DNA of 64,000 bases, taken from positions 2,508 to 66,507 of the forward strand of contig CAYLYM010000005.1 of NCBI GenBank assembly GCA_964387645.1. Reading direction: 5' to 3'. The DNA is from an uncultured Calditrichaceae bacterium. Lineage in GTDB: Bacteria > Calditrichota > Calditrichia > RBG-13-44-9. The position numbers and the translations under genes are program-made. Under the pieces are notes generated by a model. That model saw nothing but the letters and a program-made list of their open reading frames with translations. It had not been told where the DNA came from and did not search any database. Shown in pieces: positions 26,818 through 44,664 of the stretch; the stretch's first letter is position 1; the number at the start of each line of letters is the position of its first letter.

Positions 26818-27063
26818 AAATTATTGAATCTTGCATTTTATTTGGGAACATAACCCAATCAGTTTCTTTCTGTTTGATTAAAAAATAAACCATGAAAAGC
26901 ACAAAATGAAATTTGATAAGTTGTTTATTAAAATTATGGGGTATGTATCTAACTTCCTGGCCAGGTTTATTTGAATTTATTTATAAACAATGCCTGAAAA
27001 AGAAATGGATCTTTCAGGGATATCATTCAAATTAAAATTTCCTTATAGCAGTTAAATAAAAAA

Positions 27064-28745: not shown

Positions 28746-29074
28746 ATCTTAATGTATTTGTTTGCAGTTTCTTGCCTCAAGTGAAAAAGTAATTGGGAGA
28801 AAAATCAAATTCTCTTCTCGTTTCTTTTATTTCCATTTCCTTCCGGATGTAAATTAATTTATTCCATTTTAAATTTCTCAATCTAATTAATCCTGACGAT
28901 TTTTATCGGAAAAAGCTAAATGAGTCGAGAATATATTGTTCCTGAACGGTTTCATGTTAAATCATTAACATTATTACTCCTGGAAAAATAAAGCAGATTT
29001 ATATTGTGTTATGAAAATATATTTTGTATTATTAGTGCTATCATTTTAATATTTATAACACAGGAGGTGATAAA

Positions 29075-30931
29075 ATGGGTCTTTTTAAGCACAGCTTTTT
29101 GACTTCTTTGATGTTATTTTTGATTTTTTTACCAAGATTTGTCTTGGGTGAGGAAGTTGAAAAAACTTACTATCTTGAAGACACTGTAGTTGTTTTTGCA
29201 AACCGTTTTGAGTTACCTCTGAAATCGAGTGTGAATGCTTTTGATCTGATTGATGTGAAAGAATATTCTCCACTGGCCACTCATTCTTTGTTACAAATGG
29301 TTGACATGCTTTCTCCATCGGCTTTTGTGCTGGAAAAGAAAATTTTGGGTTTTGGTGTGGGATCGGCAGGTGCCGGACTGCTCAATCTGCGTGGAATGGG
29401 AGGTAAACCAAATTCAGGTGTTCTTTTTCTGATTAATGGACGGCCGGATTTTATGGGTATATTCGGACATCCCCTGCCCGATGTCTACGGCTTAATGGAT
29501 GCTGAACGTGTCGAGGTTTTGAAGGGCCCTGCTTCTACCGTATTTGGTTCGAACGCCATGGCGGGAGTAGTCAATGTTGTTTATAGTCAGGCAGAACAGG
29601 ATTATCTTAAGCTCCGGGTAGAGGCTGGAAAATATCGAACCATCCAACAACATGTCTCAGGTGCAAAGCATTTGGGAAAAACACATTTTCGCTGGAATAT
29701 ACTGCATCAGTCCAGTGCTGGACATATCGCTTCTTCTGGATTTGAAAGTTGGAGTGTATCAACAAGATTCGACAGACAAATTAATAGAAATTGGTCGATC
29801 AGTGTGGATGGTCGTTACGTTCCTTATCAATTTGATGATCCATCAATGGATGAAGATGTAGCCAACCTGGGGAATTATGCCAAAATCCGTCGGGGTATGT
29901 TGGATATGCAACTTCTTGGACAAACCGGGAAAATAAACCATTCTTTTCATGTTTATTCCAATTTAGGACATCACCGTTTTTATGATGGTTTCGAGTCCCA
30001 TGATTTTACCTATGGATTTTCTTCATATCAGTGGTTAAAATATTCCTCAAAATTGCAGTTTGGTGCAGGGATGGATTTGCTTCATTATGGTGGAAAAGCG
30101 AAAAACGTGGTTTTTCCAGCGGCGCCACCTAAACCCGAACTTCATGCAGTTACATCACTTGGGAGTTATCTTTTGGCTATTTATTCGCCATTAAAAAATT
30201 GGAATATGAAAGGTGGAATAAGATATCATCACGCTTCTTTAAATATAAACAAAATTTCACCTAGTTTAGGAATATCTTTTTTCCCTTTTTATAATCTAAA
30301 AATATATGCAAACTGGAGTGATGGTTTCCGACTGCCTACATTACAGGAATTGTATCTTTTTCCACCTTCAAACGAAAATCTGGATCCAGAAGATGTAAAA
30401 AGTTATGAGCTGGGTGGCGCATTTTACTTTGATAATTCGAATTATCTTGAAGTGTGTTATTTTAAAAATCACATTAAAAATAAAATACAGATCACTGCTA
30501 ATCCTGCTAGCCAACCGCCCTTCATGTTTATGAATAGCGGTAAGGTAAATCAATGGGGAATGGAATACAAATTGGTAGTTCAACCATCGTCTAGTATGAT
30601 GACGCAATTTTCTTATAGTTATTTAGATCCAGATCAGATGACTACTTACAATCCTGCTCATATGTTTAAGTATTTAATTCAACTCAATTTGACTAAGATA
30701 AAACTTATGTGTTCGGGGAAATTTATAAAAGATATTTATGCTGACAATAATAAAAATATGAAGTTACCGGATTACCATGTGTTGAATGTCGCTCTCTCTT
30801 ATCCCATTGGTTCTTTTCTACTGGATGTTCAATTGAGAAATGTATTGAATAGATATTATGAAATTTTGCCTGGATATCCAGCGCCTGATTTACATTTTTT
30901 AATGGGTGTTACTTATCAATTGAGTATGTAA
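29075..30931 (+). CDS. TonB-dependent outer membrane receptor
   Basis: GGAGG RBS; signal peptide; plug domain (…ERVEVLKGPASTVFGSNAMAGVVNVV); 618 aa beta-barrel. Confidence 0.8.
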   Translation: MGLFKHSFLTSLMLFLIFLPRFVLGEEVEKTYYLEDTVVVFANRFELPLKSSVNAFDLIDVKEYSPLATHSLLQMVDMLSPSAFVLEKKILGFGVGSAGAGLLNLRGMGGKPNSGVLFLINGRPDFMGIFGHPLPDVYGLMDAERVEVLKGPASTVFGSNAMAGVVNVVYSQAEQDYLKLRVEAGKYRTIQQHVSGAKHLGKTHFRWNILHQSSAGHIASSGFESWSVSTRFDRQINRNWSISVDGRYVPYQFDDPSMDEDVANLGNYAKIRRGMLDMQLLGQTGKINHSFHVYSNLGHHRFYDGFESHDFTYGFSSYQWLKYSSKLQFGAGMDLLHYGGKAKNVVFPAAPPKPELHAVTSLGSYLLAIYSPLKNWNMKGGIRYHHASLNINKISPSLGISFFPFYNLKIYANWSDGFRLPTLQELYLFPPSNENLDPEDVKSYELGGAFYFDNSNYLEVCYFKNHIKNKIQITANPASQPPFMFMNSGKVNQWGMEYKLVVQPSSSMMTQFSYSYLDPDQMTTYNPAHMFKYLIQLNLTKIKLMCSGKFIKDIYADNNKNMKLPDYHVLNVALSYPIGSFLLDVQLRNVLNRYYEILPGYPAPDLHFLMGVTYQLSM

Positions 30932-30956
30932 AAGAATTTACATTAGTTGTTTATTT

Positions 30957-31472
30957 ATGGATCAATTTTCTATTTATCGAAAACTACCTTTAACTGCAAT
31001 GTTGGCAGCTTTAGCTGTGGTAGTTCCAATATTCTTTCATTTGTTAGGATTGGGCAGCACTTTTTTACCTATGTTTCAGCCAGTGGTGCTGGGTGGATTT
31101 TTGCTTCCTCTCAGGCTATCATTGTCGGTAGCGGTGATTGCTCCGTTTGTTTCTTTTATTTTTACTGGCATGCCGCCACTTTATCCACCTATTCTGCCTG
31201 TAATGATTCTTGAGATGGCAGCCATGTGTTGTATTGCCAATCTATTTTATGTGAAAAAAAACCAAAATGTTTGGTTTACTCTTTTTCTGACAATTTTATT
31301 AGATCGTTTGATTTTATTATTAATTGTCTTAATTTTAGCTCCTTTGTTTGGGTTACCCAAATTTTTTTCAGTAGTAACTTTGTTTCATGGCGTTCCGGGT
31401 CTCGTACTCATGTTTCTCATTATCCCGGGAACAATTAAATTTTTAAATAAACGGTACCAAAATTTATATTAA
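30957..31472 (+). CDS. polytopic membrane protein, possibly ECF-transporter S-component-like
   Basis: ~5 TM helices in 171 aa; placed directly after the TonB receptor. Confidence 0.3.
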   Translation: MDQFSIYRKLPLTAMLAALAVVVPIFFHLLGLGSTFLPMFQPVVLGGFLLPLRLSLSVAVIAPFVSFIFTGMPPLYPPILPVMILEMAAMCCIANLFYVKKNQNVWFTLFLTILLDRLILLLIVLILAPLFGLPKFFSVVTLFHGVPGLVLMFLIIPGTIKFLNKRYQNLY

Positions 31473-31487
31473 TGAAGATTCATCTGG

Positions 31488-32114
31488 GTGATAAAACAAA
31501 TTATTGGAGAAAGTGAATTGGATCGTAGAACTTTTTTTGATAGTTGTGCTCAGAGTTGGGATTTGGATGAAACACCTGAGAAATTGAATAAACTTAGAGA
31601 TATTTTTTCGAATCTAAGTCTTTATTTTGATGGTAATATTCTGGATGTAGGTTGTGGAACAGGAATTTTAGTCCCTATTTTACGTAATTTATCCAGCAAT
31701 CAAAATCCGATTCTTGAGCTGGATATCTCCCGGGCTATGCTACAGAGAAATAAAACGCGTTGGTCTCCTCGTTTTTCCAGGATTCATCATTTAAATGGAA
31801 ATGCGATGTATTTGCCGCTTTCCGAAGGTTCTATCTCTTTGGTTATCTGTTTCGCTGTCATTCCTCACATTTCTGATAAATATAAAGCTTTAAACGAGTT
31901 CTATCGAGTTCTTACTACTGAAGGAGTGTTATTGATTTTACATTTAATGAGTAGTGAAAAATTGAATGAGCTTCACGCTTCAGTTGGAGAAGCCGTGGCA
32001 AATGATCGCTTACCATCGGCCGATGTTATGGCACAAAAAGTACGCGAAACTGGTTTTTCTCTTATTAAAAAAGAAGAAAAAGATGATTTATATCTAATAA
32101 TAGGTAAAAAATAG
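31488..32114 (+). CDS. class I SAM-dependent methyltransferase
   Basis: ILDVGCGTGILV motif I. Confidence 0.65.
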   Translation: MIKQIIGESELDRRTFFDSCAQSWDLDETPEKLNKLRDIFSNLSLYFDGNILDVGCGTGILVPILRNLSSNQNPILELDISRAMLQRNKTRWSPRFSRIHHLNGNAMYLPLSEGSISLVICFAVIPHISDKYKALNEFYRVLTTEGVLLILHLMSSEKLNELHASVGEAVANDRLPSADVMAQKVRETGFSLIKKEEKDDLYLIIGKK

Positions 32115-32338
32115 ATTTTTTAAAGCTTGAACTGAATATCCAGTGGGATAATTATAAATGGCGTCAAAACTTGAATAATCGATTGAAAGATTTGAGGTCT
32201 TTTTGAAATATTGGAAATTCAATATAACTGATTTTAAAGTAAATTTTATTCAAAATGAGAAAGTTACTCTTTTTATTCCATGTATTTAATTTTTAGAGTT
32301 TAAATATCATTTATTTTAGGATAAAATGAAGATTCCAA

Positions 32339-33325
32339 TTATTCCTCTTTATATCCCAATTTATCGTGCAAAAAATCATTAAAACTTTTTTTAGAGAAAT
32401 TTTCCAGGGCTTCACGCGCCGCTTTTCTTACTTTTTCATTGGGATGCAAACTAAATTGTTGCAATATTTCGCCCAGGTTTTCAGTCTTATTAATATTTCC
32501 AAGGGTCAAAAGCGCATAGCATAAAATATCCTCATCGTTAGAAGTTAATAATTGCTCGATTTGTTGAGCGAGTACTTTTGAATTGGATGAATAACTTGAA
32601 CTGATGGCTTCAAGAACAAGGGTTTTATCCTTTGAAAGGTCAAGGAAACGTTGAATTTCATTTATCCAGTAATGAGGAAATTTACCCATAGCTTTCAGCG
32701 CAGCTCTTTGAGTAGAAACCCGCTCAGATTCGATAAAGTCTTTTATCCATTCCCGTACTACTTCTAGAAATCCCAGGTCACTCAGGGCAATTAAAGCCGT
32801 TTCTCTTAACTCCACATCTTCAAATTCGTCTTCAATTATATTTAAAAATAAGTTTTTTACTCTTAAGTAATCTTCTCGCAACGATTCAGTTTGAACTTCA
32901 TCCCATTCCTCATAAAATTCTAACTCTGGTCCACTTCCCATTTCATCTTCAAAATTTTGTAGAATACCTTCGTAAATCAAATTTTCCATAGCCTTGATTG
33001 CTGCCTTTCGGATAGCGTTGTTACTATCATTTTCTATCAGTTCGATTAGTGTGTCCAGGATGTATGGTTCAAATATACAACCATGGGCAGCTAAAGCAGC
33101 AGCACCACGGATACGATCGTCAGGGGATTTTAGATGTTCTAAAATAAATTGAACATTCGCTGGCGAATAGTCACCTTTTTCACGAATCTCCGATAATTTT
33201 GTTAGAACATCTTTCCAATTATTAATCGACATATTTAGGCCCTTGTTTTTAATTTTTAAATAATCACTACTAATTAATTTTCTTACAGTTCCCGCGAATA
33301 ACACAATTAAAATTTTTATTTGCAA
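32339..33325 (-). CDS. HEAT/PBS-lyase repeat protein
   Basis: Repeated …IR.AAA.AL… helical repeats. Confidence 0.5.
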   Translation of the reverse strand: MQIKILIVLFAGTVRKLISSDYLKIKNKGLNMSINNWKDVLTKLSEIREKGDYSPANVQFILEHLKSPDDRIRGAAALAAHGCIFEPYILDTLIELIENDSNNAIRKAAIKAMENLIYEGILQNFEDEMGSGPELEFYEEWDEVQTESLREDYLRVKNLFLNIIEDEFEDVELRETALIALSDLGFLEVVREWIKDFIESERVSTQRAALKAMGKFPHYWINEIQRFLDLSKDKTLVLEAISSSYSSNSKVLAQQIEQLLTSNDEDILCYALLTLGNINKTENLGEILQQFSLHPNEKVRKAAREALENFSKKSFNDFLHDKLGYKEE

Positions 33326-33731
33326 TTTAAGAGAAATTTTTAAAGAATTTGGCTAATTTTTCACTTTTAGTTTAAGCGTATAAATATAAATAATATAAAA
33401 AATGTTGGCTCACTCTCTTGCGTAAATTTTATAACTTATTAAATTCTAAAATAAATCGAATTAAACGATTGGAGTTTTTATTTTTATAAAGATATGTAAC
33501 TTTCGATGATTTTTATTATTATAATCAAAGATAATGTTAATTTTAACAAATTTTGTGGGTTATAGTATTCTAAACAGAATTTTAACAAATGTTTAAATAT
33601 TGTAAATTTTTACTTATATGGAACTCTTGGGGTTATGTTTGATTATAAAACTTGTTAGAAATACTTTTTGATTTAACTTGATTCTTGTTCTGTCGAAAAT
33701 TTATATTTATTAACTAAAAAAAAGATAGGAT

Positions 33732-34760
33732 ATGAGTGTATTAAGTGACAAAGAGAAATTAGTACTTGAAGCAATTGTAAAATTTTTCATTCTAAATGCT
33801 AACCCGGTTGCATCGAATTATGTAGCCAGACATAGTGCTTTAGCATTTAGTCCTGCTACAATTCGGAATATAATGTACAGCCTTGAAGAAAAAGGGTATA
33901 TTTATCAACCTCATACTTCGGCTGGACGGGTGCCTACTACTCGTGGGTATAGGTTTTATGTTGACCACATGATGCGGAGGGCGAGGTTATCTACCGGTCA
34001 GAAAGAAACGATTAAAAAAGCAGTGTTTCAGAATCCCGGAGACTTCGAAACGGTTCTAAAAGAAGCTTCTAGAATACTGGCTCATTTATCTCAACAACTT
34101 AGCGTAATTATATCGCCCGAGTTTGATGAAGGTGTTTTTCACAGAATGGATATTACTCGTTTAAGTAGCGAACGGCTGTTACTTATCCTTTCGATAAAGA
34201 GTGGTATGGTCAAAACAATTCTTTTGGAAGTTTCATCATATCTTCGGGATGAACATTTGAATTCTCTTTGCAACATTTTAAACGAGCGTTTACATGGTTT
34301 AAAGGTTCGGGAAATTCGTGCGAAATTTCGTGAAATTGTTCAGGATATCGCTGATGACAAGAGTGGTTTAATCCCGCTTTTTAGTAAAGCAGCTCATAAA
34401 ATATTCGATTTCTCTGGCGAGAACGAAGTATTTCTCACAGGAACCCATAATATTTTGAGACAACCAGAGTTTGCCAATAGTATTAAGGTGTCTAGTGTTG
34501 TTGAGTTATTAGAAGATAAAAACCTCGTTATTCATCTTTTAGATGATGATATACCAGACCAGAAGTTAAGTATTAAGATCGGAGAGGAGATCAGAGAGAA
34601 GAAGATGAAAAATTGCAGTATTATTTCTGCACGGTATCGGATTGGGAATATGTCTGGGACGCTTGGAGTTATTGGTCCAATACGCATGGATTACAGTTAT
34701 TTAGTTCCCTTAGTAGATTTTACAGCCAATTTCCTTTCCGATTCGCTCGGTGAGAATTAA
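33732..34760 (+). CDS. hrcA: heat-inducible transcription repressor HrcA
   Basis: N-terminal winged HTH (…SPATIRNIMYSLEEKGYIYQPHTSAGRVPTTRGYRFYVD…); 342 aa. Confidence 0.8.
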   Translation: MSVLSDKEKLVLEAIVKFFILNANPVASNYVARHSALAFSPATIRNIMYSLEEKGYIYQPHTSAGRVPTTRGYRFYVDHMMRRARLSTGQKETIKKAVFQNPGDFETVLKEASRILAHLSQQLSVIISPEFDEGVFHRMDITRLSSERLLLILSIKSGMVKTILLEVSSYLRDEHLNSLCNILNERLHGLKVREIRAKFREIVQDIADDKSGLIPLFSKAAHKIFDFSGENEVFLTGTHNILRQPEFANSIKVSSVVELLEDKNLVIHLLDDDIPDQKLSIKIGEEIREKKMKNCSIISARYRIGNMSGTLGVIGPIRMDYSYLVPLVDFTANFLSDSLGEN

Positions 34761-34856
34761 TACTTTTGAAAAAAAAATTTTATCTGATCTGCCGTGACTG
34801 AATAAGAAAAAGACAGAGAAGGAAAGTCTGATATTTTTATCTAAAGAGAAAGGTAA

Positions 34857-36044
<1,188 letters not shown>

Positions 36045-36212
36045 CTTTAACATAAGGGGCTAAATTCTGAAATATTTTTTATTTTCCTCATACATGGCGA
36101 TCGACGAACCAGAAAAAGATTTACTCCTCACTTCAATTCCATAGAAAATAAAAATTATTAACAAAAGGTACATTGTATTTGAATAATTGTCCCAATTTTA
36201 GAAGAGACTATT

Positions 36213-36573
36213 ATGTCACCTTCATCTGTTGAAATCTGTAAGGAAACAATCGTGCATATGGATTTAGTGGAAAAAGTCAAAAAAAGTTTACCTGGAAATG
36301 ATAAAATTCAGGCATTAGTATATACTTTTAAGATATTAGGCGATCCAACGCGATTATGAATTGTTTTGGCCCTGGCCAGGGGGAAATTATGTGTGTGATA
36401 TTGCCACATTAGTAAATTTGTCTGTTTCTGCCGTCTCACATCAACTTCGTCTGTTACGAAGTATGAAGCTGGTTAAATTCATAAAAGAGGGGAATATGGT
36501 TCATTATTCTTTGGATGATGAACATATCGAGAAAATTATTGGTGAGGCACAAAATCACGTAAGAGAAAAGTAA
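36213..36573 (+). pseudogene. ArsR/SmtB-family regulator carrying a nonsense codon and a 2-bp deletion
   Basis: MSPSS…ILGDPTRL, then TGA (36357-36359) where Arg is expected. The same frame continues IVLALARGKLCV. The (TG)4 run at 36390-36397 is 2 nt short of what is needed for …CVCDIA, shifting to the frame of the listed ORF 36361..36573 (…VCDIATLVNLSVSAVSHQLRLLR…). Confidence 0.6.
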
Positions 36574-36700
36574 AAATCTTTTACTTATTAACATTATGCC
36601 AGTCAGGAATCGAACAAAAAATCAGTTATTTTAACCAGTCATTTTAAAGTTTTCAATATAGACTGCACGGACTGATCAGTGCATATCAAAAGAGTTGTTA

Positions 36701-36747
36701 AAACAAATGCTCGGTTATGAATTGGTCGGGCATTTGTTTTTTTATCC
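36701..36747 (+). terminator. candidate terminator
   Basis: aaacaaatgc…gcatttgttt 10-bp stem with a large loop, followed by ttttttt. Confidence 0.3.
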
Positions 36748-36842
36748 CAAATTTTATGAATAACCTATTATTTCCTCACACAAAAAACTCATCTTTGGTA
36801 ATTGAAGGAAAAAAATTTTCTAAAAAGGTTTATAAAAAGTGC

Positions 36843-36895
36843 TTGACGAATTGAACTTATGTTCATTATATTGCGTAAAATGAACATAAGTTCAA
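36843..36895 (+). promoter_or_regulatory. sigma70-like promoter (-35 TTGACG 36843-36848, -10 TATATT 36867-36872) overlapped by a perfect 16-bp inverted-repeat operator
   Basis: TTGAACTTATGTTCAT (36851-36866), 13-nt spacer, ATGAACATAAGTTCAA (36880-36895). The -10 lies inside the spacer. RBS AAGGTGG and ATG of the DUF134 gene follow at 36911. Confidence 0.55.
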
Positions 36896-36910
36896 TATTG
36901 AAGGTGGATA

Positions 36911-37357
36911 ATGAGAGGGCCATATCGGAAAAGAATGATATTGCAGCCGCCGCAATTTAAAAATTTTAAACCTGGGGGAATACCAAGTCGGTTTTTAAAA
37001 TCCATTATTCTTACAGTGGATGAATATGAAGCAATACGACTGGCCGATCATCTTGGTCTTGAACACCAGGAAGCAGCAGAGCGAATGAAGATATCAAGAC
37101 CGACTTTTACCCGATTAATTGAACAAGCAAGGCAAAAAGTTGCCACAGCATTGGTAGAAGGAATGGAATTAATAATTGAAGGAGGTAATATATATTTTAT
37201 CAATACGTTAAGTCATTGTAAAGATTGTGGTGAAACTATTCCTCAACCATTTACTGAGGAAATTGATCAGTGTCCTGATTGTGGTTCAGAAAATGTTGAA
37301 AATTTAGCCTGGCAGTTTATAGGAAGAGGAAGAAAAGGTTATAGAAGGGGACGTTAA
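36911..37357 (+). CDS. DUF134 (UPF0251) predicted DNA-binding protein with C-terminal CxxC…CxxC zinc ribbon and RG-rich tail
   Basis: …LTVDEYEAIRLADHLGLEHQEAAERMKISRPTFTRLIEQARQKVA… (sigma-70 region-4-like HTH typical of DUF134); CKDCG…CPDCG; GRGRKGYRRGR tail. Confidence 0.65.
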   Translation: MRGPYRKRMILQPPQFKNFKPGGIPSRFLKSIILTVDEYEAIRLADHLGLEHQEAAERMKISRPTFTRLIEQARQKVATALVEGMELIIEGGNIYFINTLSHCKDCGETIPQPFTEEIDQCPDCGSENVENLAWQFIGRGRKGYRRGR

Positions 37358-37358
37358 G

Positions 37359-38216
37359 ATGAAAATCGCTGTTGCAAGTGGAAAAGGAGGAACGGGTAAA
37401 ACATTAGTAGCAACAAACTTTGCCTATTTTGTTTCTAAAGAGAATCCTGTAACGCTTTATGACCTGGATGTAGAGGAGCCTAATGCCGCTCTATTTTTCG
37501 ATGCTGAAAAGAAAGAAGTTAAATCCGTTCAAGTAATGATCCCCGTTGTGAATGAGAAAAAATGTGATCATTGTGGAGTTTGTAGCCGAATTTGCGAATA
37601 CCATGCAATTATAAACTTAGGAAATCAGGTTATGGTTTTTCCAGAATTATGCCATAGCTGTTATGGGTGTTTAGAATTATGTCCTCAAGGAGCTATTAGT
37701 GAGGGTAAAAAAGAAATTGGTACTATTCATACTGCAAAACATAATAATATAGAAATTGTTACAGGTGTTTTAAAAATTAGTGAATCTGCTACTCCAAAAT
37801 TAATTCGTGAGACAAAAAAAGAATTGTCAGATAAAAATTCAATTGAAATTTATGATTCACCACCTGGAACATCTTGTCCTGTAATAGAAGTAGTAAAAGA
37901 TGTAGATTATGTTTTAATAGTTGGTGAGCCGACTCCGTTTGGTTTGCATGATTTAGACTTATTGATGCGGGTTATAGAACAATTAAAAATACCATTTGGT
38001 GTATTAATTAATAAAGCCGATGAGCAGAATAACCTTATTAAACAGTATTGTATAGAAAAAAACGTAGAAATTATTGGGGAAATTCCTATGCGCCACGATA
38101 TAGCGTGTACTTATGCCAAAGGTAAGTTAATTATAGATGAAATTGATGATATGAGTTCACTATTCGAATCAATTTGGGATAAAATAATGCAAAAAGTTAA
38201 CGAGGCAGCTTTATGA
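37359..38216 (+). CDS. MinD/ParA-superfamily P-loop ATPase with inserted 2x[4Fe-4S] ferredoxin domain (COG1149-type)
   Basis: Deviant Walker A SGKGGTGKT; CDHCGVCSRIC…CHSCYGCLELC cysteine motifs. Confidence 0.75.
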   Translation: MKIAVASGKGGTGKTLVATNFAYFVSKENPVTLYDLDVEEPNAALFFDAEKKEVKSVQVMIPVVNEKKCDHCGVCSRICEYHAIINLGNQVMVFPELCHSCYGCLELCPQGAISEGKKEIGTIHTAKHNNIEIVTGVLKISESATPKLIRETKKELSDKNSIEIYDSPPGTSCPVIEVVKDVDYVLIVGEPTPFGLHDLDLLMRVIEQLKIPFGVLINKADEQNNLIKQYCIEKNVEIIGEIPMRHDIACTYAKGKLIIDEIDDMSSLFESIWDKIMQKVNEAAL

Positions 38217-39094
38217 AGGAAATTTTGCTTATAAGTGGGAAAGGTGGAACTGGCAAGACATCGATTTCTGCTGCACTGGGAGCGTTAGCCGGAAATAAAG
38301 CTGTTGTTGCCGACTGTGATGTGGATGCAGCCAATTTACATCTGCTTTATGAACCAGAAATAACTCGAGAAGAGAACTTTTATAGTGGTAAGGAACCAGT
38401 AATAGACCACAACTTGTGTACAAAATGTGGTTTATGTAAGGAAAAATGTCGATTTGATGCCATTTATCTGGAGGATGGACAATATAAAATTGATGAAGTG
38501 AGTTGTGAGGGGTGCTCGTTGTGTTTTCACATTTGTCCTATAGATGCTATTCGAATGGAAAAGAATTTGGCTGGAAAGTGGTATTGCGCAAAATCGCGTT
38601 TTGGGAATGATTTTTTATTTGCTCATTTGGGCATAGGTAAAGAAAATTCAGGGAAATTAGTAACAAAAGTCAAGCAAGAAGCTAAGCAGTTAGCTGATCA
38701 AAGGGGTATTTCATTTATTTTTGTGGATGGACCTCCGGGAATAGGTTGTCCAGTAATTTCGTCTTTAAGCAATGTTGATGTTGTTTTAATTGTAACAGAA
38801 GCAACACAATCAGGTTTGCATGATTTAGCAAGGTTGGTAGAATTAATAGAATATTTCAATCTTAAAGCTTTTTGTGTTATTAATAAAAGTGATTTAAATG
38901 AAGAAGTAACCAGAGAAATAAAAGAATTTTGTACAGACCATAATATTCAAATTATTACTGAAATACCATTTCATCCTGTGTTTTATGAAACTTTGCAAGA
39001 AGGGAAAACAGTAATTGAGAGTCAAAATTCAGAAATAATTGACAAAATAAGAAAAATTTTTAACGAGATGACAAAAGAGGAGAATGTGAAATGA
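38213..39094 (+). CDS. second COG1149-type MinD-like ATPase with ferredoxin domain (paralog)
   Basis: SGKGGTGKT; CTKCGLCKEKC…CEGCSLCFHIC. ATGA overlap with the upstream paralog. Confidence 0.75.
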   Translation: MKEILLISGKGGTGKTSISAALGALAGNKAVVADCDVDAANLHLLYEPEITREENFYSGKEPVIDHNLCTKCGLCKEKCRFDAIYLEDGQYKIDEVSCEGCSLCFHICPIDAIRMEKNLAGKWYCAKSRFGNDFLFAHLGIGKENSGKLVTKVKQEAKQLADQRGISFIFVDGPPGIGCPVISSLSNVDVVLIVTEATQSGLHDLARLVELIEYFNLKAFCVINKSDLNEEVTREIKEFCTDHNIQIITEIPFHPVFYETLQEGKTVIESQNSEIIDKIRKIFNEMTKEENVK

Positions 39095-39432
39095 AAGTTG
39101 CCATTACCACGCAAGCAGAAGGATGGGATGCAAAAATTGATCCTAGATTTGGTCGGGCGCGAGGATTTTGGATTATTGATACCGACACTGGGGAAGCTGA
39201 ATTTATAGACAACAATGAAAATTTTGAAGCTGCACATGGTGCTGGAACAAGCTCTGCGCAGAAAATGATCGAAAATAAAGTTAATGTATTGATTTCTGGA
39301 TCAGTTGGTCCAAAAGCAGGATCGGTACTCAAAGCAGCTGGGATTAAGATATATTTAACAAATGAAAATTTGACTGTTCGAGAAGCTTTTGATCGTTTTA
39401 AGAATAATAAATTAACTGAGATGTTAAATTAA
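39091..39432 (+). CDS. NifX/NifB-like (dinitrogenase FeMo-cofactor biosynthesis family) small cofactor-binding protein
   Basis: MKVAITTQAEGWDAKIDPRFGRARGFWIID…VNVLISGSVGPKA…GIKIY, the typical DUF/COG1433 pattern. ATGA overlap with the upstream gene. Confidence 0.65.
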   Translation: MKVAITTQAEGWDAKIDPRFGRARGFWIIDTDTGEAEFIDNNENFEAAHGAGTSSAQKMIENKVNVLISGSVGPKAGSVLKAAGIKIYLTNENLTVREAFDRFKNNKLTEMLN

Positions 39433-39449
39433 AAAAAGGAGGTGTCATC

Positions 39450-39824
39450 ATGCCAGGTGGTGATCGTACAGGACCTTTAGGTTTTGGTCCACTTACAGGA
39501 AGAGGTTTGGGTTATTGTGCGGGATATAATCATCCCGGTTATTATGTTCCTCCCGGTTGGGGCAGAGGTTTTGGTCGCGGCTGGGGTTGGGGTAGAGGAC
39601 GTGGATTTGGTTTTGGCCGAGGATTCTGGCGCTGGGGATGGCGTTGGACTGCTCCCATTCTTCCCGAACAATTAGACAAAATGCCGCCCGAATATCTGGT
39701 TGGATTAAAAGAAGAGTTACGCGGATTACGAACTACTGTTGATGATATGCTGCAAAGAATTGAAAATATGGAAAAAACCAGGGATAGCCATCAGGGTAAA
39801 GGTGAAACTACTGGTGGGGAATGA
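39450..39824 (+). CDS. DUF5320-like protein with Trp/Arg/Gly-rich low-complexity core
   Basis: N-terminus MPGGDRTGPLGFGPLTGRGLGYCAGY (the DUF5320 hallmark as I recall it); core GWGRGFGRGWGWGRGRGFGFGRGFWRWGWRW; C-terminal predicted helix. GGAGG RBS. Confidence 0.55.
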   Translation: MPGGDRTGPLGFGPLTGRGLGYCAGYNHPGYYVPPGWGRGFGRGWGWGRGRGFGFGRGFWRWGWRWTAPILPEQLDKMPPEYLVGLKEELRGLRTTVDDMLQRIENMEKTRDSHQGKGETTGGE

Positions 39825-39875
39825 TGTGAATTAATTAAAAAACTTTTAAAATTTGAGTAAAATGGAGGCTTAAAA

Positions 39876-40250
39876 ATGAAAATTGCTGTTGCTTCTGATG
39901 ATGGTGTTACAATTTCCGCGCACTTTGGTCGTACACGAGGTTTTGTGATTGCTGAAATTGAAGGTGACAAAATTGTCAATAAAGAATACCGGGAAAATAC
40001 GTTTACTGGTCATGCCCGGGGCTTAAATGTCACCGGGCATGACTTTAATGATCGTCATGGGCCAATTCTGGAAGCATTGAAAGATTGCAAGGTTGTTATA
40101 TCTCATGGAATGGGACGCCGAATTTATGAAGATTTAAGGGCTGCAGGTATTTCAGCCTTTATTGTTCAGGAAACAGATGTTGATCAAGCATTAAACCTGT
40201 ATCTTCAAAATTCTCTGGTTGATAGACCTGATAAAGGATGTGATCATTAA
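39876..40250 (+). CDS. second NifX/NifB-like cofactor-binding protein
   Basis: MKIAVASDDGVTISAHFGRTRGFVIAEIEGDKIV…; GGAGG RBS. Confidence 0.6.
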   Translation: MKIAVASDDGVTISAHFGRTRGFVIAEIEGDKIVNKEYRENTFTGHARGLNVTGHDFNDRHGPILEALKDCKVVISHGMGRRIYEDLRAAGISAFIVQETDVDQALNLYLQNSLVDRPDKGCDH

Positions 40251-40660
40251 CATAAGCGTGATAAAAGTACTAAAGATTAGAATTTCGGAAAAGGACAGAA
40301 TTCAGGTTGACAGATAAAATCCGATAAAATCCGGCGGAAGTAAGTGAACAATGAACGGGACTATATATGCATTTTCTGGAGGTTAGGTAATCTTATTGAA
40401 TAAGGTGAACTTTGTAAAATAAAAATCATCATAATACAGTGAAATGTTGACTTTTTAATGAAGCGAGAAAATCTAATGATCATAGTTAGATCTATTCTTG
40501 GTACAATTTGTAGGGGAGTAAAATAAATTAATCTTTTATTGAGAAACTTTTTCTGATTTTTGATAATCCGATTGTAAACAAATGAAAGTTCGGGTAAAAT
40601 CAAAGTTAAATTTCAAATATTAATTCTTTAAAAAATTTTAACTAATAAAGAAATAAAATT

Positions 40661-40861
40661 ATGTATGAAAAAAATCCGCAAAGAATGGGACCGGTTGGGC
40701 ATTGTATTTGTCCCAAATGTGGTTTTCGAATTTCACATAAACGTGGAGTCCCATGTCAAGACCAGAAATGTCCTCAATGTGGTGTGAAATTGATGCGAGA
40801 AGGTTCGTACCATCACAATTTGTTATTAGCAAAGAAAAAAAAGAAGAAGGAAAACTCTTGA
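40661..40861 (+). CDS. small zinc-ribbon protein (CxxC…CxxC) with poly-Lys tail
   Basis: GPVGHCICPKCG…CPQCG; Lys6 tail encoded by an A-rich tract. Confidence 0.4.
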   Translation: MYEKNPQRMGPVGHCICPKCGFRISHKRGVPCQDQKCPQCGVKLMREGSYHHNLLLAKKKKKKENS

Positions 40862-41053
40862 AAATTGAAATTAAGTTGAATTTTCTAAATGCTAATGTTT
40901 GGAGAATAAAATAAGTAAAGTACGGAAGCTTTTTAGTCCACAATCATTTTAATTGTTATTAATAAATGTGAAACACTTTATATGAGGGAATCAACAGGCT
41001 AATTTTTCTCTTGTACCTTAAATATTAGATTTTGAAATCAGGAAGTTCAATAT

Positions 41054-41704
41054 ATGATCAGTGCGACCATTGTATTTGATAATACGACTAAAAATAAGCA
41101 GTTAAAGGCAGATTGGGGATTTGCATGTGTTATTGAGTATCATGATAGGATGCTCCTATTTGATACTGGTGCTGATGGTAATATATTATTGAATAATATG
41201 AAAAAATTGAACATTAATCCACAAAGTATTCACTCAGTTTTCATATCGCACAACCATTTTGATCACATAGGTGGTCTCTCGCATTTTTTAAATGAAAATT
41301 CTGATGTGATACTCTACCTGCCTCAATCTTTAAGAGGAGTAACGCATGGACGAGAAATAATACATATTGATGACAATCCGCGAGAATTGGAAAAAGGAAT
41401 ATTTACAACTGGAGAATTAGAGGGCATTGAACAATCCCTCGTTATTTCCACATCAAAAGGAATGGTAATTTTTGTGGGATGCTCACATCCAGATATGAAT
41501 AAAATACTGAGTCGAGCTAAACAATTCGGAAAATTATTTGGCATTATTGGGGGACTACATGGTTTTAATCACTATAAATTGTTTCAGGATTTACAGTTAA
41601 TTTGTCCAACTCATTGTACAAAAAATAAACAGGTAATTAAAAATATTTATCCTGACAAGGTAATTGAGGGTGGGGTAGGTTTGCAAATAGTAATAAGTTC
41701 ATGA
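41054..41704 (+). CDS. MBL-fold metallo-hydrolase
   Basis: HNHFDHIGG (HxHxDH motif). Confidence 0.6.
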   Translation: MISATIVFDNTTKNKQLKADWGFACVIEYHDRMLLFDTGADGNILLNNMKKLNINPQSIHSVFISHNHFDHIGGLSHFLNENSDVILYLPQSLRGVTHGREIIHIDDNPRELEKGIFTTGELEGIEQSLVISTSKGMVIFVGCSHPDMNKILSRAKQFGKLFGIIGGLHGFNHYKLFQDLQLICPTHCTKNKQVIKNIYPDKVIEGGVGLQIVISS

Positions 41705-41759
41705 ACCGGATATAGAGGATAGAAAGACGAATAATAATAAAATTAAGTAGGAGAAAGTT

Positions 41760-43112
41760 ATGAAGACTGATGTGTTAGTAATTGGTGGTGGCCCTGGAGG
41801 CGTTATTTCTGCTATAGTTGGTAGAACTATTTATCCAGACAAAAAATTTATTTTGGTTCGAAAAGAACAGAAATCGATTGTACCCTGTGGTATACCTTAT
41901 GTTATTAATCGGTTAAAATCCGCCGAAGAAAATATTATGGGAGATGCTCCGCTAAAAGCTAAGGAAGTAGAAATAGTAATTGATGAAGTAATAAATGTTG
42001 ATCGAAAAAAAAAGGTGGCTCAATTAGCTAGTGGTAAGGAAATTGCCTTCCAGAAATTAGTTTTAGCAACAGGTAGTAAACCAGTTGTTCCGTCTTCAAT
42101 AAAAGGAATTGATTTAGAAAATATTTTCCCAATAAAAAAAGAACTAAACTATTTAAAACATTTAAGAGAACAAATTCACAATTTTAAAAATATTGTTATA
42201 GTTGGTGGTGGATTTATTGGAGTTGAATTTGCTGATGAAATAAGTAAACTTCCCAATAAAAATATTAGTATTATTGAGCTATCAGATCATCTTCTGGATC
42301 AATCTTTTGATGAAGAATTTAGTGAGAAAGTAGAAAATATTCTACGGAAAGAAAAAGTTAATATTTATACTCAGAGTCAGGTTGGTGGTTTTAAGGGAAA
42401 TAAGAAAGTTGAATATGTTTTATTGAATAATGGCAAAGAAATCCCTGCTGATGTTGTAATTTTATCTATTGGTTCCAGACCTAATACGGACTTAGCTGAA
42501 GAAATTGGATTAGATGTTTCTCCTTTAGGAGGAATTAAAGTAGATGAATTTATGAAAACCAGTGATTCAGACATTTTTGCCGTTGGTGACTGTGTAGAAA
42601 AGCGTTGTTTCTTTTGTCGAAAGCATATAGATGTCATGTTAGCTTCAACTGCTACTGCTGAGGCCCGATCGGCTGGTGCCAATCTGTTTCATTTAAAAAT
42701 AATAGAAATGAACAAAGGAACCATCGGAATATATTCTACTAAAGTGGGTGATTTGGCGCTGGCTACGGCCGGGCATACCGAGAAGAAAGCTATCGAAGAG
42801 GGATATGAAATTGTTACTGGTATATCTAAAGGTATTGATCGACATCCTGGTACCCTTCCAGATAAGCATGAGTTATATGTAAAACTGATATTTTCAAAAT
42901 ATTCTGGTATTATTATGGGTGCCCAAATCTATGGAGCCGATTCAGTAGGTGAGTTAATTAATACAATTGGGTTGGCTATACAAAATAAATTGACTATAAC
43001 AGATATTGCGACCATACAATATGGTACGCATCCTTTGCTAACTTCAGCACCAACTACTTATCCATTGATTGCTTGTGCTCTGGATGCTTTTAAAAAAATC
43101 CATGAATTTTAG
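41760..43112 (+). CDS. FAD-dependent pyridine-nucleotide-disulfide oxidoreductase (CoA-disulfide reductase/NADH oxidase family)
   Basis: VLVIGGGPGG FAD motif; single redox Cys in SIVPCGIPY (aligned with SFANCALPY of CoADR/Nox); second Rossmann IVIVGGGFIGVE. Confidence 0.7.
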   Translation: MKTDVLVIGGGPGGVISAIVGRTIYPDKKFILVRKEQKSIVPCGIPYVINRLKSAEENIMGDAPLKAKEVEIVIDEVINVDRKKKVAQLASGKEIAFQKLVLATGSKPVVPSSIKGIDLENIFPIKKELNYLKHLREQIHNFKNIVIVGGGFIGVEFADEISKLPNKNISIIELSDHLLDQSFDEEFSEKVENILRKEKVNIYTQSQVGGFKGNKKVEYVLLNNGKEIPADVVILSIGSRPNTDLAEEIGLDVSPLGGIKVDEFMKTSDSDIFAVGDCVEKRCFFCRKHIDVMLASTATAEARSAGANLFHLKIIEMNKGTIGIYSTKVGDLALATAGHTEKKAIEEGYEIVTGISKGIDRHPGTLPDKHELYVKLIFSKYSGIIMGAQIYGADSVGELINTIGLAIQNKLTITDIATIQYGTHPLLTSAPTTYPLIACALDAFKKIHEF

Positions 43113-43224
43113 ATAAAATATATGAAGATTAATGATAATAACTTTTAACTAAAAGTGGATTCGTTAATAATATTTGTTGAAATATCACAAAATTTGTATT
43201 TCATCTGTGCGGAGGTTGCTAACT

Positions 43225-43683
43225 ATGTTTAATAAAGCTCGATTAAAAATATATCCTGATTCCGTTCTAAGAGAAAAATCATTTCCTGTTTTCGATTTTG
43301 ATAAGAATTTGCAATCCCTAATAAATGCAATGCGAAGGATTATGTATGAACACAAAGGTATTGGTTTGGCAGCTCCACAGATTGGAATTCTAAAACAAGT
43401 TATTATTGCGGATGTTGGCAATGGGCTCCTTACTCTTGTTAACCCAACTATATTAGAAAGAAAAGGTGAAGAAATATTAACAGAAGGTTGTTTAAGTTTA
43501 CCTGGAATCGGAGTTGACGTACCGAGAAGCACACGTCTTGCTATTAGTGGTTTTGATCAATCAGGAAAAGCAATTGAAATGGAGTTAAGTGGTCTCATGG
43601 CACGTGTAGTCCAACACGAAATTGACCATTTAAATGGAGTACTAATTATTGATTATCAGGAGAATAAAAAAGAAGTGGTTTAG
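43225..43683 (+). CDS. def: peptide deformylase
   Basis: GIGLAAPQIG, EGCLSLPG, QHEIDHLNG motifs. GGAGG at 43211-43215 then ATG at 43225; the upstream extension of the listed ORF is rejected. Confidence 0.85.
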   Translation: MFNKARLKIYPDSVLREKSFPVFDFDKNLQSLINAMRRIMYEHKGIGLAAPQIGILKQVIIADVGNGLLTLVNPTILERKGEEILTEGCLSLPGIGVDVPRSTRLAISGFDQSGKAIEMELSGLMARVVQHEIDHLNGVLIIDYQENKKEVV

Positions 43684-43699
43684 AAAAGGAGAATAAGAA

Positions 43700-44518
43700 A
43701 TGAATACTCAAAATAGTAAAGTTCATACTCAAAATGAAGAAGATATGAAAATCTCAGAAAATCTTTCAAGAATAAAACATCGCATTGTAGTATTTAGTGG
43801 GAAAGGTGGGGTTGGCAAAACCACTGTGAGTGTTAATCTTGCTTTTGGATTTCAACAAAAAGGGCATAAAACAGGACTTTTAGACGCAGATATCACTGGA
43901 CCAAACATATCCAAAATGTTAGGATTGAGTGGAAACATTCAGGTTATTGATAACAAATTGATCCCACTTATCCGAAACGAATTAAAAGTGATTTCCATAG
44001 CAAACATTATCGAGAATAACCAACCTGTGATTTGGAGAGGTCCATTGAGGTCGAAATTATTGAATCAATTTTTAGGAGATGTATTGTGGGGAGAGCTGGA
44101 TTTTCTTGTTGCAGATTTACCGCCGGGCACAGGGGATGAAATTCTAACAATGACACAGAAAATGCAACCTGATATGGCTATCATTGTTACTACACCTCAG
44201 GAGGTTTCTTTAATTGATTCAGCAAGAGCTATTAATATGGCAAAAAAAATGAATATTAAAAAAATAGGTCTAATCGAAAATATGTCTGGTTTAATATGTC
44301 CAAAATGTGGAGAAAATATTGAAATATTTGGTTCAGGAGGTGGCAAAAAACAGTCTGAAGAAATGGGTATTGAATTTTTAGGTACTCTTCCTCTTGATCT
44401 TAAAACAAGAAAATTGGCTGATCAGGGGCAACCAATTCTTCTTGCCGATGCGCAGGCAGGTATATCCATTTTATTTAAACAAATTGTTGATAAAATCATG
44501 ACAGTGATTATGCAATGA
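43700..44518 (+). CDS. apbC: Mrp/NBP35/ApbC-family Fe-S cluster carrier ATPase
   Basis: FSGKGGVGKTT deviant Walker A; CPKCG motif. Confidence 0.8.
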   Translation: MNTQNSKVHTQNEEDMKISENLSRIKHRIVVFSGKGGVGKTTVSVNLAFGFQQKGHKTGLLDADITGPNISKMLGLSGNIQVIDNKLIPLIRNELKVISIANIIENNQPVIWRGPLRSKLLNQFLGDVLWGELDFLVADLPPGTGDEILTMTQKMQPDMAIIVTTPQEVSLIDSARAINMAKKMNIKKIGLIENMSGLICPKCGENIEIFGSGGGKKQSEEMGIEFLGTLPLDLKTRKLADQGQPILLADAQAGISILFKQIVDKIMTVIMQ

Positions 44519-44664
44519 AGATTTCATTAAATTTAAACTCATGTATTATAAATAACTAGATTTTATAAAAATAATATAGGATATTTTGTTTAATTCATAT
44601 TAAGAATTTTTTTAAAAATTTTTTAAAAAAACACCAATTAAATCAAATTAAGATATATTTAATA

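What the first reader, a model, noticed from the sequence alone, without database searches (positions are those of the whole stretch)
36213..36573. ArsR-family regulator inactivated twice: CGA to TGA nonsense plus 2-bp loss in a (TG)n tract
The protein reads MSPSS…ILGDPTRL, then TGA where the family has Arg. The same frame continues IVLALARGKLCV. Then the tgtgtgtg run is one TG unit short of what …CVCDIA requires, which throws the HTH and metal-site part (…VCDIATLVNLSVSAVSHQLRLLR…) into another frame. Dinucleotide tracts are classic slipped-strand sites. The shortfall could be real phase variation of a metal-responsive repressor, gene decay, or a sequencing artefact. The gene lies just upstream of the metallocluster locus promoter. 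If it is functional in other strains, it could be an additional regulator of that locus.
Basis: seen in the sequence. Interest (0 to 1): 0.5.

Follow-up and report, generated by a model that had tools for sequence, protein, structure and literature searches.

The report
Dead metal-sensor gene, relic of lost efflux operon
This is a genuinely broken ArsR/SmtB-type metal-sensing repressor gene, left behind when a Calditrichia bacterium lost the zinc/cadmium efflux pump it once controlled; it is ordinary gene decay, not a genetic switch and not a sequencing error.

Summary
Window 36213-36573 is an ArsR/SmtB gene with an in-frame TGA at codon 49 (36357-36359) and a 2-bp shortfall in a (TG)4 run (36390-36397), inside the invariant CVC motif. 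The repaired 120-aa protein scores 92 bits against NF033788 (cut-off 55) and keeps all four SmtB alpha5 zinc ligands.

Both lesions are identical in six other independent metagenome assemblies of the same population, so they are neither an artefact nor visibly phase-variable.

Context explains the decay. In the related Calditrichia genomes that keep the module, the order is hrcA-dnaJ-arsR followed directly by a Zn/Cd/Pb P1B-type ATPase. Of 37 distant homologous loci, 36 have the same pairing. Here the ATPase is missing from all 64 kb. Only a decayed fragment of about 25-35 codons from its metal-binding domain remains (about 36598-36699), with its own stop at the second Cys of CxxC. The arsR operator palindrome (TGAAC-N4-GTTCA in relatives) is also broken.

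The neighbouring DUF134 "metallocluster" operon carries its own twin-palindrome promoter. That promoter is conserved in three phyla without any arsR nearby, so a regulatory link to this gene is not supported.

Verdict: an orphaned, decaying cadC/smtB-type regulator. Interest is low.

The parts
36177..36196 (+). Degenerate arsR operator, ATTTGAAT-AATT-GTCCCAAT. The left half-site is intact. The right half-site, GTTCA in relatives, reads GTCCCA here.
   Evidence: Relatives carry a palindrome at the same distance (about -30) from the arsR ATG. L007 has TTGAACAATTGTTCAA, L051 has TTTGAACGAGCGTTCAAA, L010 has TTTGAACAGTTATTCAAA and L009 has CTTGAATGGTTGCTCAAT. Among the fetched loci the motif TGAA[CT]-N4-[GA]TTCA lies almost only just upstream of arsR homologues. 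The window shows no inverted repeat here. The sequence is identical in all seven assemblies.
36158..36187 (+). Promoter-like site (TTAACA-18-AATAAT) overlapping the operator remnant
   Evidence: Consensus scan, 10 of 12 matches. This is a prediction only.
36213..36359 (+). 5' segment of the arsR/smtB pseudogene (codons 1-48) ending in the premature TGA (36357-36359)
   Evidence: A 48-aa gene is called here on seven contigs from NCBI, JGI and ENA. The stop position holds K or R in 111 of 120 intact homologues.
36360..36395 (+). Middle segment, still in the original frame (IVLALARGKLCV)
   Evidence: It aligns to RIVLALA.EELCV of the orthologues.
36390..36397 (+). (TG)4 run and site of the 2-bp deficit, inside the invariant Cys-Val-Cys-Asp metal-site motif
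   Evidence: It is (TG)4 in all seven assemblies.
36392..36573 (+). 3' segment of the pseudogene in the +1 frame (VCDIATL...NHVREK, TAA at 36571-36573). It encodes the wHTH and the alpha5 ligands D103, H105, H116 and E119.
   Evidence: tblastn against L007 ArsR residues 61-119 gives 76% identity. The alignment to SmtB 1R1T matches D104, H106, H117 and E120.
36482..36482 (+). Population polymorphism T/G. ATA (Ile91) is found in the window and four contigs. AGA (Arg91, the family consensus) is found in L003 and L006.
   Evidence: Arg occupies this position in 108 of 120 homologues.
36598..36699 (+). Decayed 5' remnant of the P1B-type ATPase gene (first HMA domain). It reads ...HFKVFNIDCTD*SVHIKRVV, against ELKVKGVDCADCALHIEKSV in L010. 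A TGA at 36673-36675 replaces the second Cys of CxxC.
   Evidence: Four orthologous ATPase N-termini align in one frame at the expected position. The summed Smith-Waterman score is 180. Shuffles gave mean 90, sd 8.4 and maximum 156, and 0 of 2000 reached the observed score. Pfam HMA support is weak: E=0.016, and only when the stop is replaced by Cys. No other ATPase or CDF similarity exists anywhere in the window.
36700..36746 (+). Intrinsic-terminator-like hairpin (18-bp stem, then T7) directly after the ATPase remnant, marking the end of the relic
   Evidence: Folding energy is -18.6 kcal/mol, z = -3.3.

Best explanation
The feature is the dead first gene of a former cadC/smtB-type metal-efflux operon.

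Ancestral state. In this Calditrichia lineage an ArsR/SmtB repressor sat directly downstream of dnaJ. It had an SmtB-like alpha5 site, a CVC/alpha3N site and an N-terminal Cys. It presumably bound a TGAAC-N4-GTTCA palindrome about 30 bp upstream of its own start and repressed an arsR-P1B-2 (Zn/Cd/Pb) ATPase operon until metal released it.

Present state. Almost all of the ATPase gene has been deleted. About 25-35 decayed codons of its first HMA domain remain. The repressor, now without a target, picked up a nonsense codon and a 2-bp deletion, and its operator lost one half-site.

The three relics are fixed in the sampled population and have no function.

Shown here: the lesions, their presence in seven assemblies, the orthology and synteny, the absence of the ATPase, the ATPase remnant and the broken operator.

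Inferred: the metal specificity, the repressor mechanism, and the order of events. The ATPase probably went first, because its remnant is more decayed than the arsR remnant.
For: 1. Family identity of the repaired protein. NF033788 gives 92.1 bits (cut-off 55) and PF01022 gives 60.2 bits. The best solved relative is SmtB (77 bits), with all four alpha5 ligands and C61/D64 aligned. C9, C60, C62, D63, D103, H105, H116 and E119 are each conserved in at least 117 of 120 homologues.

2. The lesions are real and fixed. The sequence across both sites is identical in six further contigs from six different metagenome samples, which are 99.0-100% identical to the window overall. No intact protein more than 69% identical exists among 5.8 billion protein clusters.

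3. Orthology and synteny. HEAT-hrcA-dnaJ-arsR-P1B ATPase(-CDF)-DUF302-HHH_3...beta-CASP is seen in L007 and L009. hrcA-dnaJ-arsR-ATPase is seen in L051, the nearest relative, with DnaJ 80% identical. The window has HEAT, hrcA, dnaJ, the arsR pseudogene, DUF302 (46088), HHH_3 (46944) and beta-CASP (48774, minus strand), but no ATPase hit anywhere.

4. The ATPases of relatives are Zn/Cd/Pb type. TIGR01512 gives 522-530 bits (cut-off 313.5), and the best-scoring model is NF008262. L009 also has a ZitB-like CDF.

5. The arsR-ATPase pairing is general: 36 of 37 distant loci, plus L010-L012.

6. The ATPase HMA remnant beat all 2000 shuffles.

7. The operator is conserved in relatives and broken in the window.

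8. Other lineages have lost the whole module after dnaJ (L052/L053, L054), so loss is recurrent in this clade.

9. Relative decay. The arsR remnant keeps 50 of 56 residues invariant in four orthologues. The ATPase remnant keeps 4 of 10 (Fisher p=0.0015).
Against: - No read-level data were available. Minority alleles with (TG)5 or CGA could exist below the assembly consensus.
- The arsR remnant is only mildly degraded beyond the two lesions. It deviates at 3 of 44 highly conserved columns, and 23 of 120 intact homologues deviate as much. Inactivation is therefore fairly recent, and residual expression of fragments cannot be excluded.
- The ATPase remnant is short. Its Pfam support is weak (E=0.016, and only with the stop replaced by Cys).
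- The nearest genomes with the intact module are distant (DnaJ 68-80% identical). The history of the roughly 9-kb DUF134-to-HD block now lying between the relic and DUF302 is not resolved.
- Only 64 kb of the genome was seen. A second ArsR or P1B ATPase elsewhere cannot be ruled out.
Confidence: 0.85

Rival explanations
1. Phase-variable (contingency) regulator. Slipped-strand mispairing in the (TG)n tract switches the repressor ON and OFF in the population.
For: The frameshift lies in a dinucleotide run, and adding one TG unit restores the frame.
Against: - All seven independent assemblies have (TG)4.
- A pattern scan allowing 4-14 bases between the flanks found only the (TG)4 form.
- Four units is short for efficient slippage (general knowledge).
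- The upstream TGA at codon 49 would still truncate the protein.
- The operator is broken and the regulated ATPase is gone.
- Orthologues encode CVC as TGC-GTN-TGC, so the tract is not a conserved feature.
Confidence: 0.02
2. Sequencing or assembly artefact. The real gene is intact.
For: Dinucleotide runs can be miscalled. Several JGI contigs of this population do carry suspicious 65-140-bp deletions elsewhere.
Against: The same two lesions occur in the window and in six contigs from six samples built by at least two assembly pipelines, including a MEGAHIT-style k141 contig. The 48-aa truncated product is called on seven contigs from NCBI, JGI and ENA. No intact near-identical protein exists in the 5.8-billion-cluster database.
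Confidence: 0.01
3. The gene was, or in other strains still is, a regulator of the adjacent DUF134/MinD-like/NifX-like 'metallocluster' operon. Its loss has derepressed or rewired that operon.
For: The DUF134 promoter (36843-36896) carries two perfect TGAAC-N4-GTTCA palindromes (36852-36865 and 36881-36894). These are the only exact matches in 64 kb. The core is the same as in the operators upstream of arsR orthologues and in the SmtB/ArsR 12-2-12 repeats, for example AATACCTGAACA-GA-TGTTCAAGTATT (PMC8790569). One or two such repeats at the promoter are typical of SmtB-type control.
Against: - The same twin-site promoter accompanies DUF134 operons at unrelated genomic positions with no adjacent arsR. 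This holds in Caldithrix abyssi, three other Calditrichia populations, an Ignavibacteria MAG and, in slightly variant form, a Latescibacterota genome. The sites therefore belong to the DUF134 operon, whose first gene is itself an HTH protein.
- In relatives the arsR is co-directional with, and abuts or overlaps, a P1B ATPase, the classical target.
- In the window the twin sites are perfectly preserved, whereas arsR and its own operator have decayed.
Confidence: 0.07
4. The locus is still expressed as something useful. Options are recoding (TGA read-through plus frameshifting) or two separate peptides (the 48-aa N-terminal piece and a 70-aa HTH piece).
For: A promoter-like site and the start codon persist. 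The C-terminal frame is open for 70 codons from a TTG.
Against: - TGA is a normal stop here.
- Two independent recoding events in one small gene would be unprecedented.
- No Rfam element is present.
- The 70-aa ORF is not called as a gene on any contig in the collection.
- That ORF would lack helices alpha1-alpha2 and one Cys of the metal site.
- The operator and the target gene are both degraded.
Confidence: 0.03

Closest known systems
SmtB of Synechococcus PCC 7942 (PDB 1R1T/1SMT), a Zn-sensing ArsR/SmtB repressor
   Same: It is the best solved-structure match (77 bits, residues 30-119 against 31-120). All four alpha5 ligands align: D104, H106, H117 and E120 match D103, H105, H116 and E119. 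C61 and D64 of the alpha3N site also align. The operators of the orthologues share the TGAACA-N2-TGTTCA core of 12-2-12 repeats.
   Different: SmtB regulates a metallothionein (smtA) transcribed divergently. Here the ancestral target was a co-directional P1B ATPase. The motif is CVCD, not CVGD. The window copy is a pseudogene.
CadC-CadA of Staphylococcus aureus pI258 (PDB 1U2W) and the Listeria CadC-like Lmo1102
   Same: The operon logic matches that of the relatives: an ArsR-family repressor as first gene, immediately followed by a Cd/Zn/Pb P1B-type ATPase. It also has an N-terminal Cys plus a CVC motif (alpha3N-type thiolate site) and a C-terminal alpha5 site. Sequence match is 57 bits.
   Different: The match is only moderate. 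Metal specificity is untested. In the window the ATPase is reduced to a fragment of about 30 codons and the repressor is broken.
ZiaR-ZiaA (Synechocystis) and AztR-AztA (Anabaena)
   Same: These are SmtB-family Zn sensors controlling a Zn-exporting P1B ATPase through a 12-2-12 repeat near the promoter (as summarised in PMC8790569).
   Different: ziaR is divergently transcribed from ziaA. No direct comparison was run here.
Orphaned-regulator pseudogenes in general (a regulator decays after its target is lost)
   Same: The pattern of relics fits: broken operator, nonsense codon plus frameshift in the regulator, and a truncated, more decayed target gene. Complete loss of the module has occurred in sister lineages.
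   Different: Nothing distinctive was found. This is an instance of the general process.

Membership tests
ArsR/SmtB metalloregulator (NCBIfam NF033788, Pfam PF01022 HTH_5) | Sequence matches the family model above its curated cut-off | tested here: met
   The repaired translation scores 92.1 bits (cut-off 55) and 60.2 bits (cut-off 22).
ArsR/SmtB metalloregulator (NCBIfam NF033788, Pfam PF01022 HTH_5) | Uninterrupted reading frame encoding the whole winged-helix protein (about 100-125 aa) | tested here: not met
   There is a TGA at codon 49 (36357-36359) and a 2-bp deficit at 36390-36397. The longest pieces are 48 and 70 aa. It is therefore a pseudogene of the family, not a functional member.
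ArsR/SmtB metalloregulator (NCBIfam NF033788, Pfam PF01022 HTH_5) | Metal-sensing ligands: alpha5 DxH...HxxE and alpha3/alpha3N Cys residues | tested here: met
   This holds in the repaired translation only. D103, H105, H116 and E119 align to SmtB D104, H106, H117 and E120. C60, C62, D63 and C9 are present. The frameshift cuts through C60-V61-C62.
ArsR/SmtB metalloregulator (NCBIfam NF033788, Pfam PF01022 HTH_5) | Palindromic (12-2-12-type) operator at its own or its target's promoter | tested here: not met
   Orthologues have TGAAC-N4-GTTCA at about -30. The window has TGAAT-AATT-GTCCCA with a broken right half.
ArsR/SmtB metalloregulator (NCBIfam NF033788, Pfam PF01022 HTH_5) | Metal-dependent release from DNA | not testable with these tools
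   This needs EMSA or reporter assays with a resurrected protein.
cadCA / ziaRA-type operon (ArsR-family repressor plus P1B-2 Zn/Cd/Pb ATPase) | A heavy-metal P1B ATPase gene adjacent to the repressor gene | tested here: not met
   It is present in L007, L009, L010-L012, L051 and in 36 of 37 distant loci. In the window only a remnant at 36598-36699 is left, and no ATPase hit exists in 64 kb.
Phase-variable contingency locus (simple-sequence-repeat switch) | Repeat-tract length differs between cells or samples | tested here: not met
   The tract is (TG)4 in 7 of 7 assemblies, and the variable-gap pattern scan found only (TG)4. Read-level data were not available.
Phase-variable contingency locus (simple-sequence-repeat switch) | One tract length gives an intact, functional ORF | tested here: not met
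   (TG)5 restores the frame, but the TGA 33 nt upstream still terminates translation.

The most novel reading that the evidence does not exclude
The twin TGAAC-N4-GTTCA palindromes in the DUF134 operon promoter might be genuine SmtB/ArsR-type operators, bound in trans by ArsR/SmtB sensors throughout Calditrichota and its neighbours. Death of this arsR would then have uncoupled a conserved Fe-S/NifX-like 'metallocluster' operon from metal sensing. That would be regulatory rewiring by pseudogenisation, rather than neutral decay of an orphan.
Probability: 0.06. Interest if true: 0.5.

Novelty: new member of a known kind. Interest (0 to 1): 0.15.

Why it matters
It matters little beyond correct annotation. 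Three changes follow.
- The locus should be annotated as an arsR/smtB pseudogene plus a P1B-ATPase fragment, not as a 48-aa hypothetical protein.
- This Calditrichia population has probably lost one Zn/Cd/Pb efflux system, a small clue about metal exposure in its habitat.
- No regulatory link to the DUF134 operon should be inferred from adjacency.

The by-product may be more useful than the pseudogene. The DUF134 (UPF0251) operon carries a conserved twin-palindrome promoter in the genomes sampled from three phyla. That gives a concrete, testable operator for a family of unknown function.

Tried and rejected
1. Genome-collection scan with the repaired ArsR. It returned only distant homologues (36-56% identical) from Clostridia, Brachyspira, Helicobacter and others. 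It found neither the source genome nor close relatives. The loci were still useful for showing arsR-ATPase linkage and operator position.

2. Metagenome pattern scan for alternative tract lengths. It found only one contig, already known, with (TG)4. This was not informative about heterogeneity.

3. Extra 71-bp and 107-bp deletions inside the pseudogene in contigs L001 and L004. I first read these as ongoing decay. I rejected that because the same JGI contigs carry similar 65-140-bp gaps all along their length, including inside the TonB-dependent receptor, MinD-like ATPase and DUF134 genes. They are probably assembly artefacts, or at least not specific to the pseudogene.

4. Test for excess substitutions at conserved ArsR positions. 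The window deviates at 3 of 44 columns, and 23 of 120 intact homologues deviate as much. The excess is not significant, so the pseudogene is not old on the scale of the family.

5. Pfam HMA on the ATPase remnant. There was no hit with the stop as X, and E=0.016 with the stop as Cys. I relied instead on the orthologue-based permutation test.

6. Search for mobile-element signatures, flanking repeats, compositional shifts or RNA families around the 36.7-46.0 kb block. Nothing was found, so how the ATPase was replaced remains unresolved.

7. Other overlapping ORF pairs in the window (11470/11955, 47443/47879, 55270/55769), checked as possible further frameshifted genes. The first two pairs are separate neighbouring genes with different domains. 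In the third pair the first ORF has no Pfam hit, so that pair is unresolved.

8. Literature search for DUF134. Nothing relevant turned up.

Full report
**1. The observation**

  - An ORF starts at ATG 36213 and reads MSPSS...ILGDPTRL. It stops at TGA 36357-36359 (codon 49).
  - The same frame continues IVLALARGKLCV and then meets TGA at 36396-36398.
  - A (TG)4 run lies at 36390-36397.
  - The +1 frame then reads VCDIATLVNLSVSAVSHQLRLLR... to TAA at 36571-36573.
- Replacing TGA by CGA and adding one TG gives a 120-aa protein.
  - It scores 92.1 bits against NCBIfam NF033788, the ArsR/SmtB metalloregulator model (cut-off 55).
  - It scores 60.2 bits against Pfam HTH_5 (cut-off 22).
- Intact homologues of 119-124 aa, mostly from Calditrichia/Calditrichota and KSB1 MAGs, are 64-69% identical over the full length.
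- In 120 such homologues the stop position is Lys (61) or Arg (50). C60, V61, C62 and D63 are essentially invariant.
- KLCVCDI needs 21 nt and 19 are present, so the lesion is a 2-bp deletion.
- TGA is an ordinary stop in this genome: 15 of 51 long ORFs end in it.

**2. Real or artefact, fixed or variable**

- An exact-protein look-up of the neighbouring DnaJ found six further contigs of the same population from six different samples.
  - Five are from JGI and one is an ENA MEGAHIT-style assembly.
  - They are 99.0-100% identical to the window.
- All six carry the same TGA and the same (TG)4. The only difference inside the pseudogene is one SNP at 36482, Ile91/Arg91, where Arg is the family consensus.
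- The truncated 48-aa product is on record from seven contigs from NCBI, JGI and ENA.
- No intact protein more than 69% identical exists among 5.8 billion protein clusters.
- The lesions are therefore real and fixed at the consensus level, and there is no sign of tract-length switching.
- Two JGI contigs show extra 71-bp and 107-bp deletions in the pseudogene.
  - The same contigs have comparable gaps throughout, including inside clearly functional genes.
  - I do not count these deletions as evidence of decay.

**3. What the gene used to be**

- The best solved-structure match is SmtB (77 bits).
  - The four alpha5 zinc ligands align exactly: SmtB D104, H106, H117 and E120 match D103, H105, H116 and E119 here.
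  - C61 and D64 of the alpha3N site also align.
  - A conserved N-terminal Cys (C9, in 117 of 120 homologues) and the CVC motif add a CadC-like thiolate site.
- Genomic context of the closest intact homologues settles its role.
  - L007 and L009 (Calditrichia MAGs, DnaJ 68-69% identical) have the order HEAT-hrcA-dnaJ-arsR-P1B ATPase(-CDF)-DUF302-HHH_3...beta-CASP.
  - L051, the nearest relative (DnaJ 80%), has hrcA-dnaJ-arsR-P1B ATPase.
  - L010-L012 have arsR-ATPase at another location.
- The ATPases have HMA domains and score as Zn/Cd/Pb-type.
  - TIGR01512 gives 522-530 bits (cut-off 313.5).
  - The best-scoring model is the Zn/Cd/Hg/Pb ATPase NF008262.
  - L009 adds a ZitB-like CDF.
- Of 37 distant arsR loci fetched from other phyla, 36 have a P1B ATPase directly downstream on the same strand.
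- This is the cadCA / ziaR-ziaA type of module.

**4. What is left in the window**

- tblastn with the proteins of the relatives finds HEAT, HrcA, DnaJ, both halves of ArsR, DUF302 (46088-46483), HHH_3 (46944-47393) and beta-CASP (48774-50183, minus strand) in the same order. It finds no ATPase or CDF anywhere in the 64 kb.
- Immediately after the arsR stop, one frame reads ...HFKVFNIDCTD*SVHIKRVV (about 36598-36699).
  - The N-terminal HMA domains of all four orthologous ATPases align there, for example ELKVKGVDCADCALHIEKSV in L010.
  - A TGA (36673-36675) replaces the second Cys of CxxC.
  - The summed alignment score is 180. Dinucleotide shuffles gave 90 +/- 8.4, with a maximum of 156, and 0 of 2000 reached the observed score.
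  - Pfam support alone is weak.
- Similarity ends at 36699.
  - An 18-bp-stem hairpin with a T7 tail follows at 36700-36746.
  - About 750 of 778 ATPase codons are therefore gone.
- The operator has decayed too.
  - Upstream of arsR, relatives carry a palindrome about 30 bp before the ATG: TTGAACAATTGTTCAA, TTTGAACGAGCGTTCAAA, TTTGAACAGTTATTCAAA and CTTGAATGGTTGCTCAAT.
  - In the distant loci, TGAA[CT]-N4-[GA]TTCA occurs almost exclusively right before arsR.
  - It has the core of the SmtB/ArsR 12-2-12 repeats (PMC8790569).
  - The window has TGAAT-AATT-GTCCCA at the same position (36180-36194), so the right half-site is broken.
- Operator, repressor and target are all relics.
- Two other lineages (L052/L053 and L054, DnaJ 75-76%) have lost the whole module after dnaJ.

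**5. Order of events (inference)**

- The arsR remnant keeps 50 of 56 residues that are invariant in four orthologues. The ATPase remnant keeps 4 of 10 (Fisher p=0.0015).
- Beyond its two lesions, the arsR remnant is not significantly more deviant than intact homologues.
- The simplest reading is that the pump was lost first and the orphaned repressor died later, fairly recently. The numbers are small.
- Slippage in an ancestral TGT-GTG-TGT tract is a plausible source of the 2-bp loss but is not demonstrated. Close orthologues use TGC-GTN-TGC.

**6. The suggested link to the 'metallocluster' locus**

- The DUF134 operon promoter (TTGACG...TATATT, 36843-36872) carries two perfect TGAAC-N4-GTTCA palindromes, at 36852-36865 and 36881-36894.
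  - These are the only exact matches in the window.
- The same promoter accompanies DUF134 operons at unrelated positions, with no arsR next to them. It has a -35 box, site 1, a -10 box and site 2 before the RBS. It occurs in:
  - Caldithrix abyssi;
  - three other Calditrichia populations;
  - an Ignavibacteria MAG;
  - a Latescibacterota genome, with TGCAC/GTGCA variants.
- The sites therefore belong to the DUF134 operon.
  - Autoregulation by its first gene, an HTH protein, is the parsimonious inference.
  - Their adjacency to the pseudogene is incidental.
  - Cross-talk with an ArsR/SmtB paralogue cannot be excluded by sequence alone. I give it about 6-7%.

**7. Verdict**

  - Gene decay is supported.
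  - Phase variation and sequencing artefact are not.
  - A role as regulator of the neighbouring locus is not supported.
- The feature is an orphaned, decaying cadC/smtB-type repressor gene beside the stump of its Zn/Cd/Pb efflux ATPase.
- This is a known kind of event in an undescribed organism. Interest is low.

Noticed in passing
window 36843-36896 (sites 36852-36865 and 36881-36894); also L055:5930-6000, L057:5930-6000, L059:2465-2536, L061:2935-3000, L063:2900-3000: The DUF134 (UPF0251) operon has a strongly conserved promoter. It runs TTGAC(A/G), then TGAAC-N4-GTTCA, then TTATATT, with a second TGAAC-N4-GTTCA just before the RBS. It is conserved in Calditrichota, an Ignavibacteria MAG and, in variant form, Latescibacterota. 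This is a candidate operator for the uncharacterised DUF134 HTH protein, and it shares its core with SmtB/ArsR 12-2-12 repeats.
   Followed up: partly
window 36598-36699: A stump of the first HMA domain of a P1B-type ATPase lies here, with a TGA in place of the second Cys of CxxC. It is more decayed than the adjacent arsR pseudogene.
   Followed up: yes
L001, L002, L003, L004 relative to window 26843-44673: JGI contigs of the same population carry many 65-140-bp deletions relative to the window. Examples are 28615-28720, 32563-32631, 37499-37636, 38225-38304 and 44555-44673. Several lie inside conserved genes, and some have recurrent breakpoints. They are probably assembly artefacts or strain-graph collapses, so caution is needed when using these contigs for gene integrity.
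   Followed up: partly
window 36700-46087 compared with L007:8699-8931 and L009:7887-9088: A block of about 9.3 kb lies exactly where relatives have the ATPase(-CDF), between the arsR relic and DUF302. It holds the DUF134 operon, an MBL-fold protein, a pyridine-nucleotide disulphide oxidoreductase, peptide deformylase, an Mrp/NUBPL-type ATPase and an HD protein. No repeats, integrase or compositional shift mark its borders.
   Followed up: partly
window 36482: There is a T/G polymorphism within the pseudogene across samples: Ile91 against the ancestral-type Arg91. Both alleles carry the same two inactivating lesions.
   Followed up: yes
L052/L053 and L054 (downstream of dnaJ): The region downstream of hrcA-dnaJ is a variable spot in Calditrichia. 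Some lineages have arsR-ATPase there and others have unrelated genes (NosD-like/beta-helix, AAA_15). This suggests repeated gain and loss at this position.
   Followed up: no
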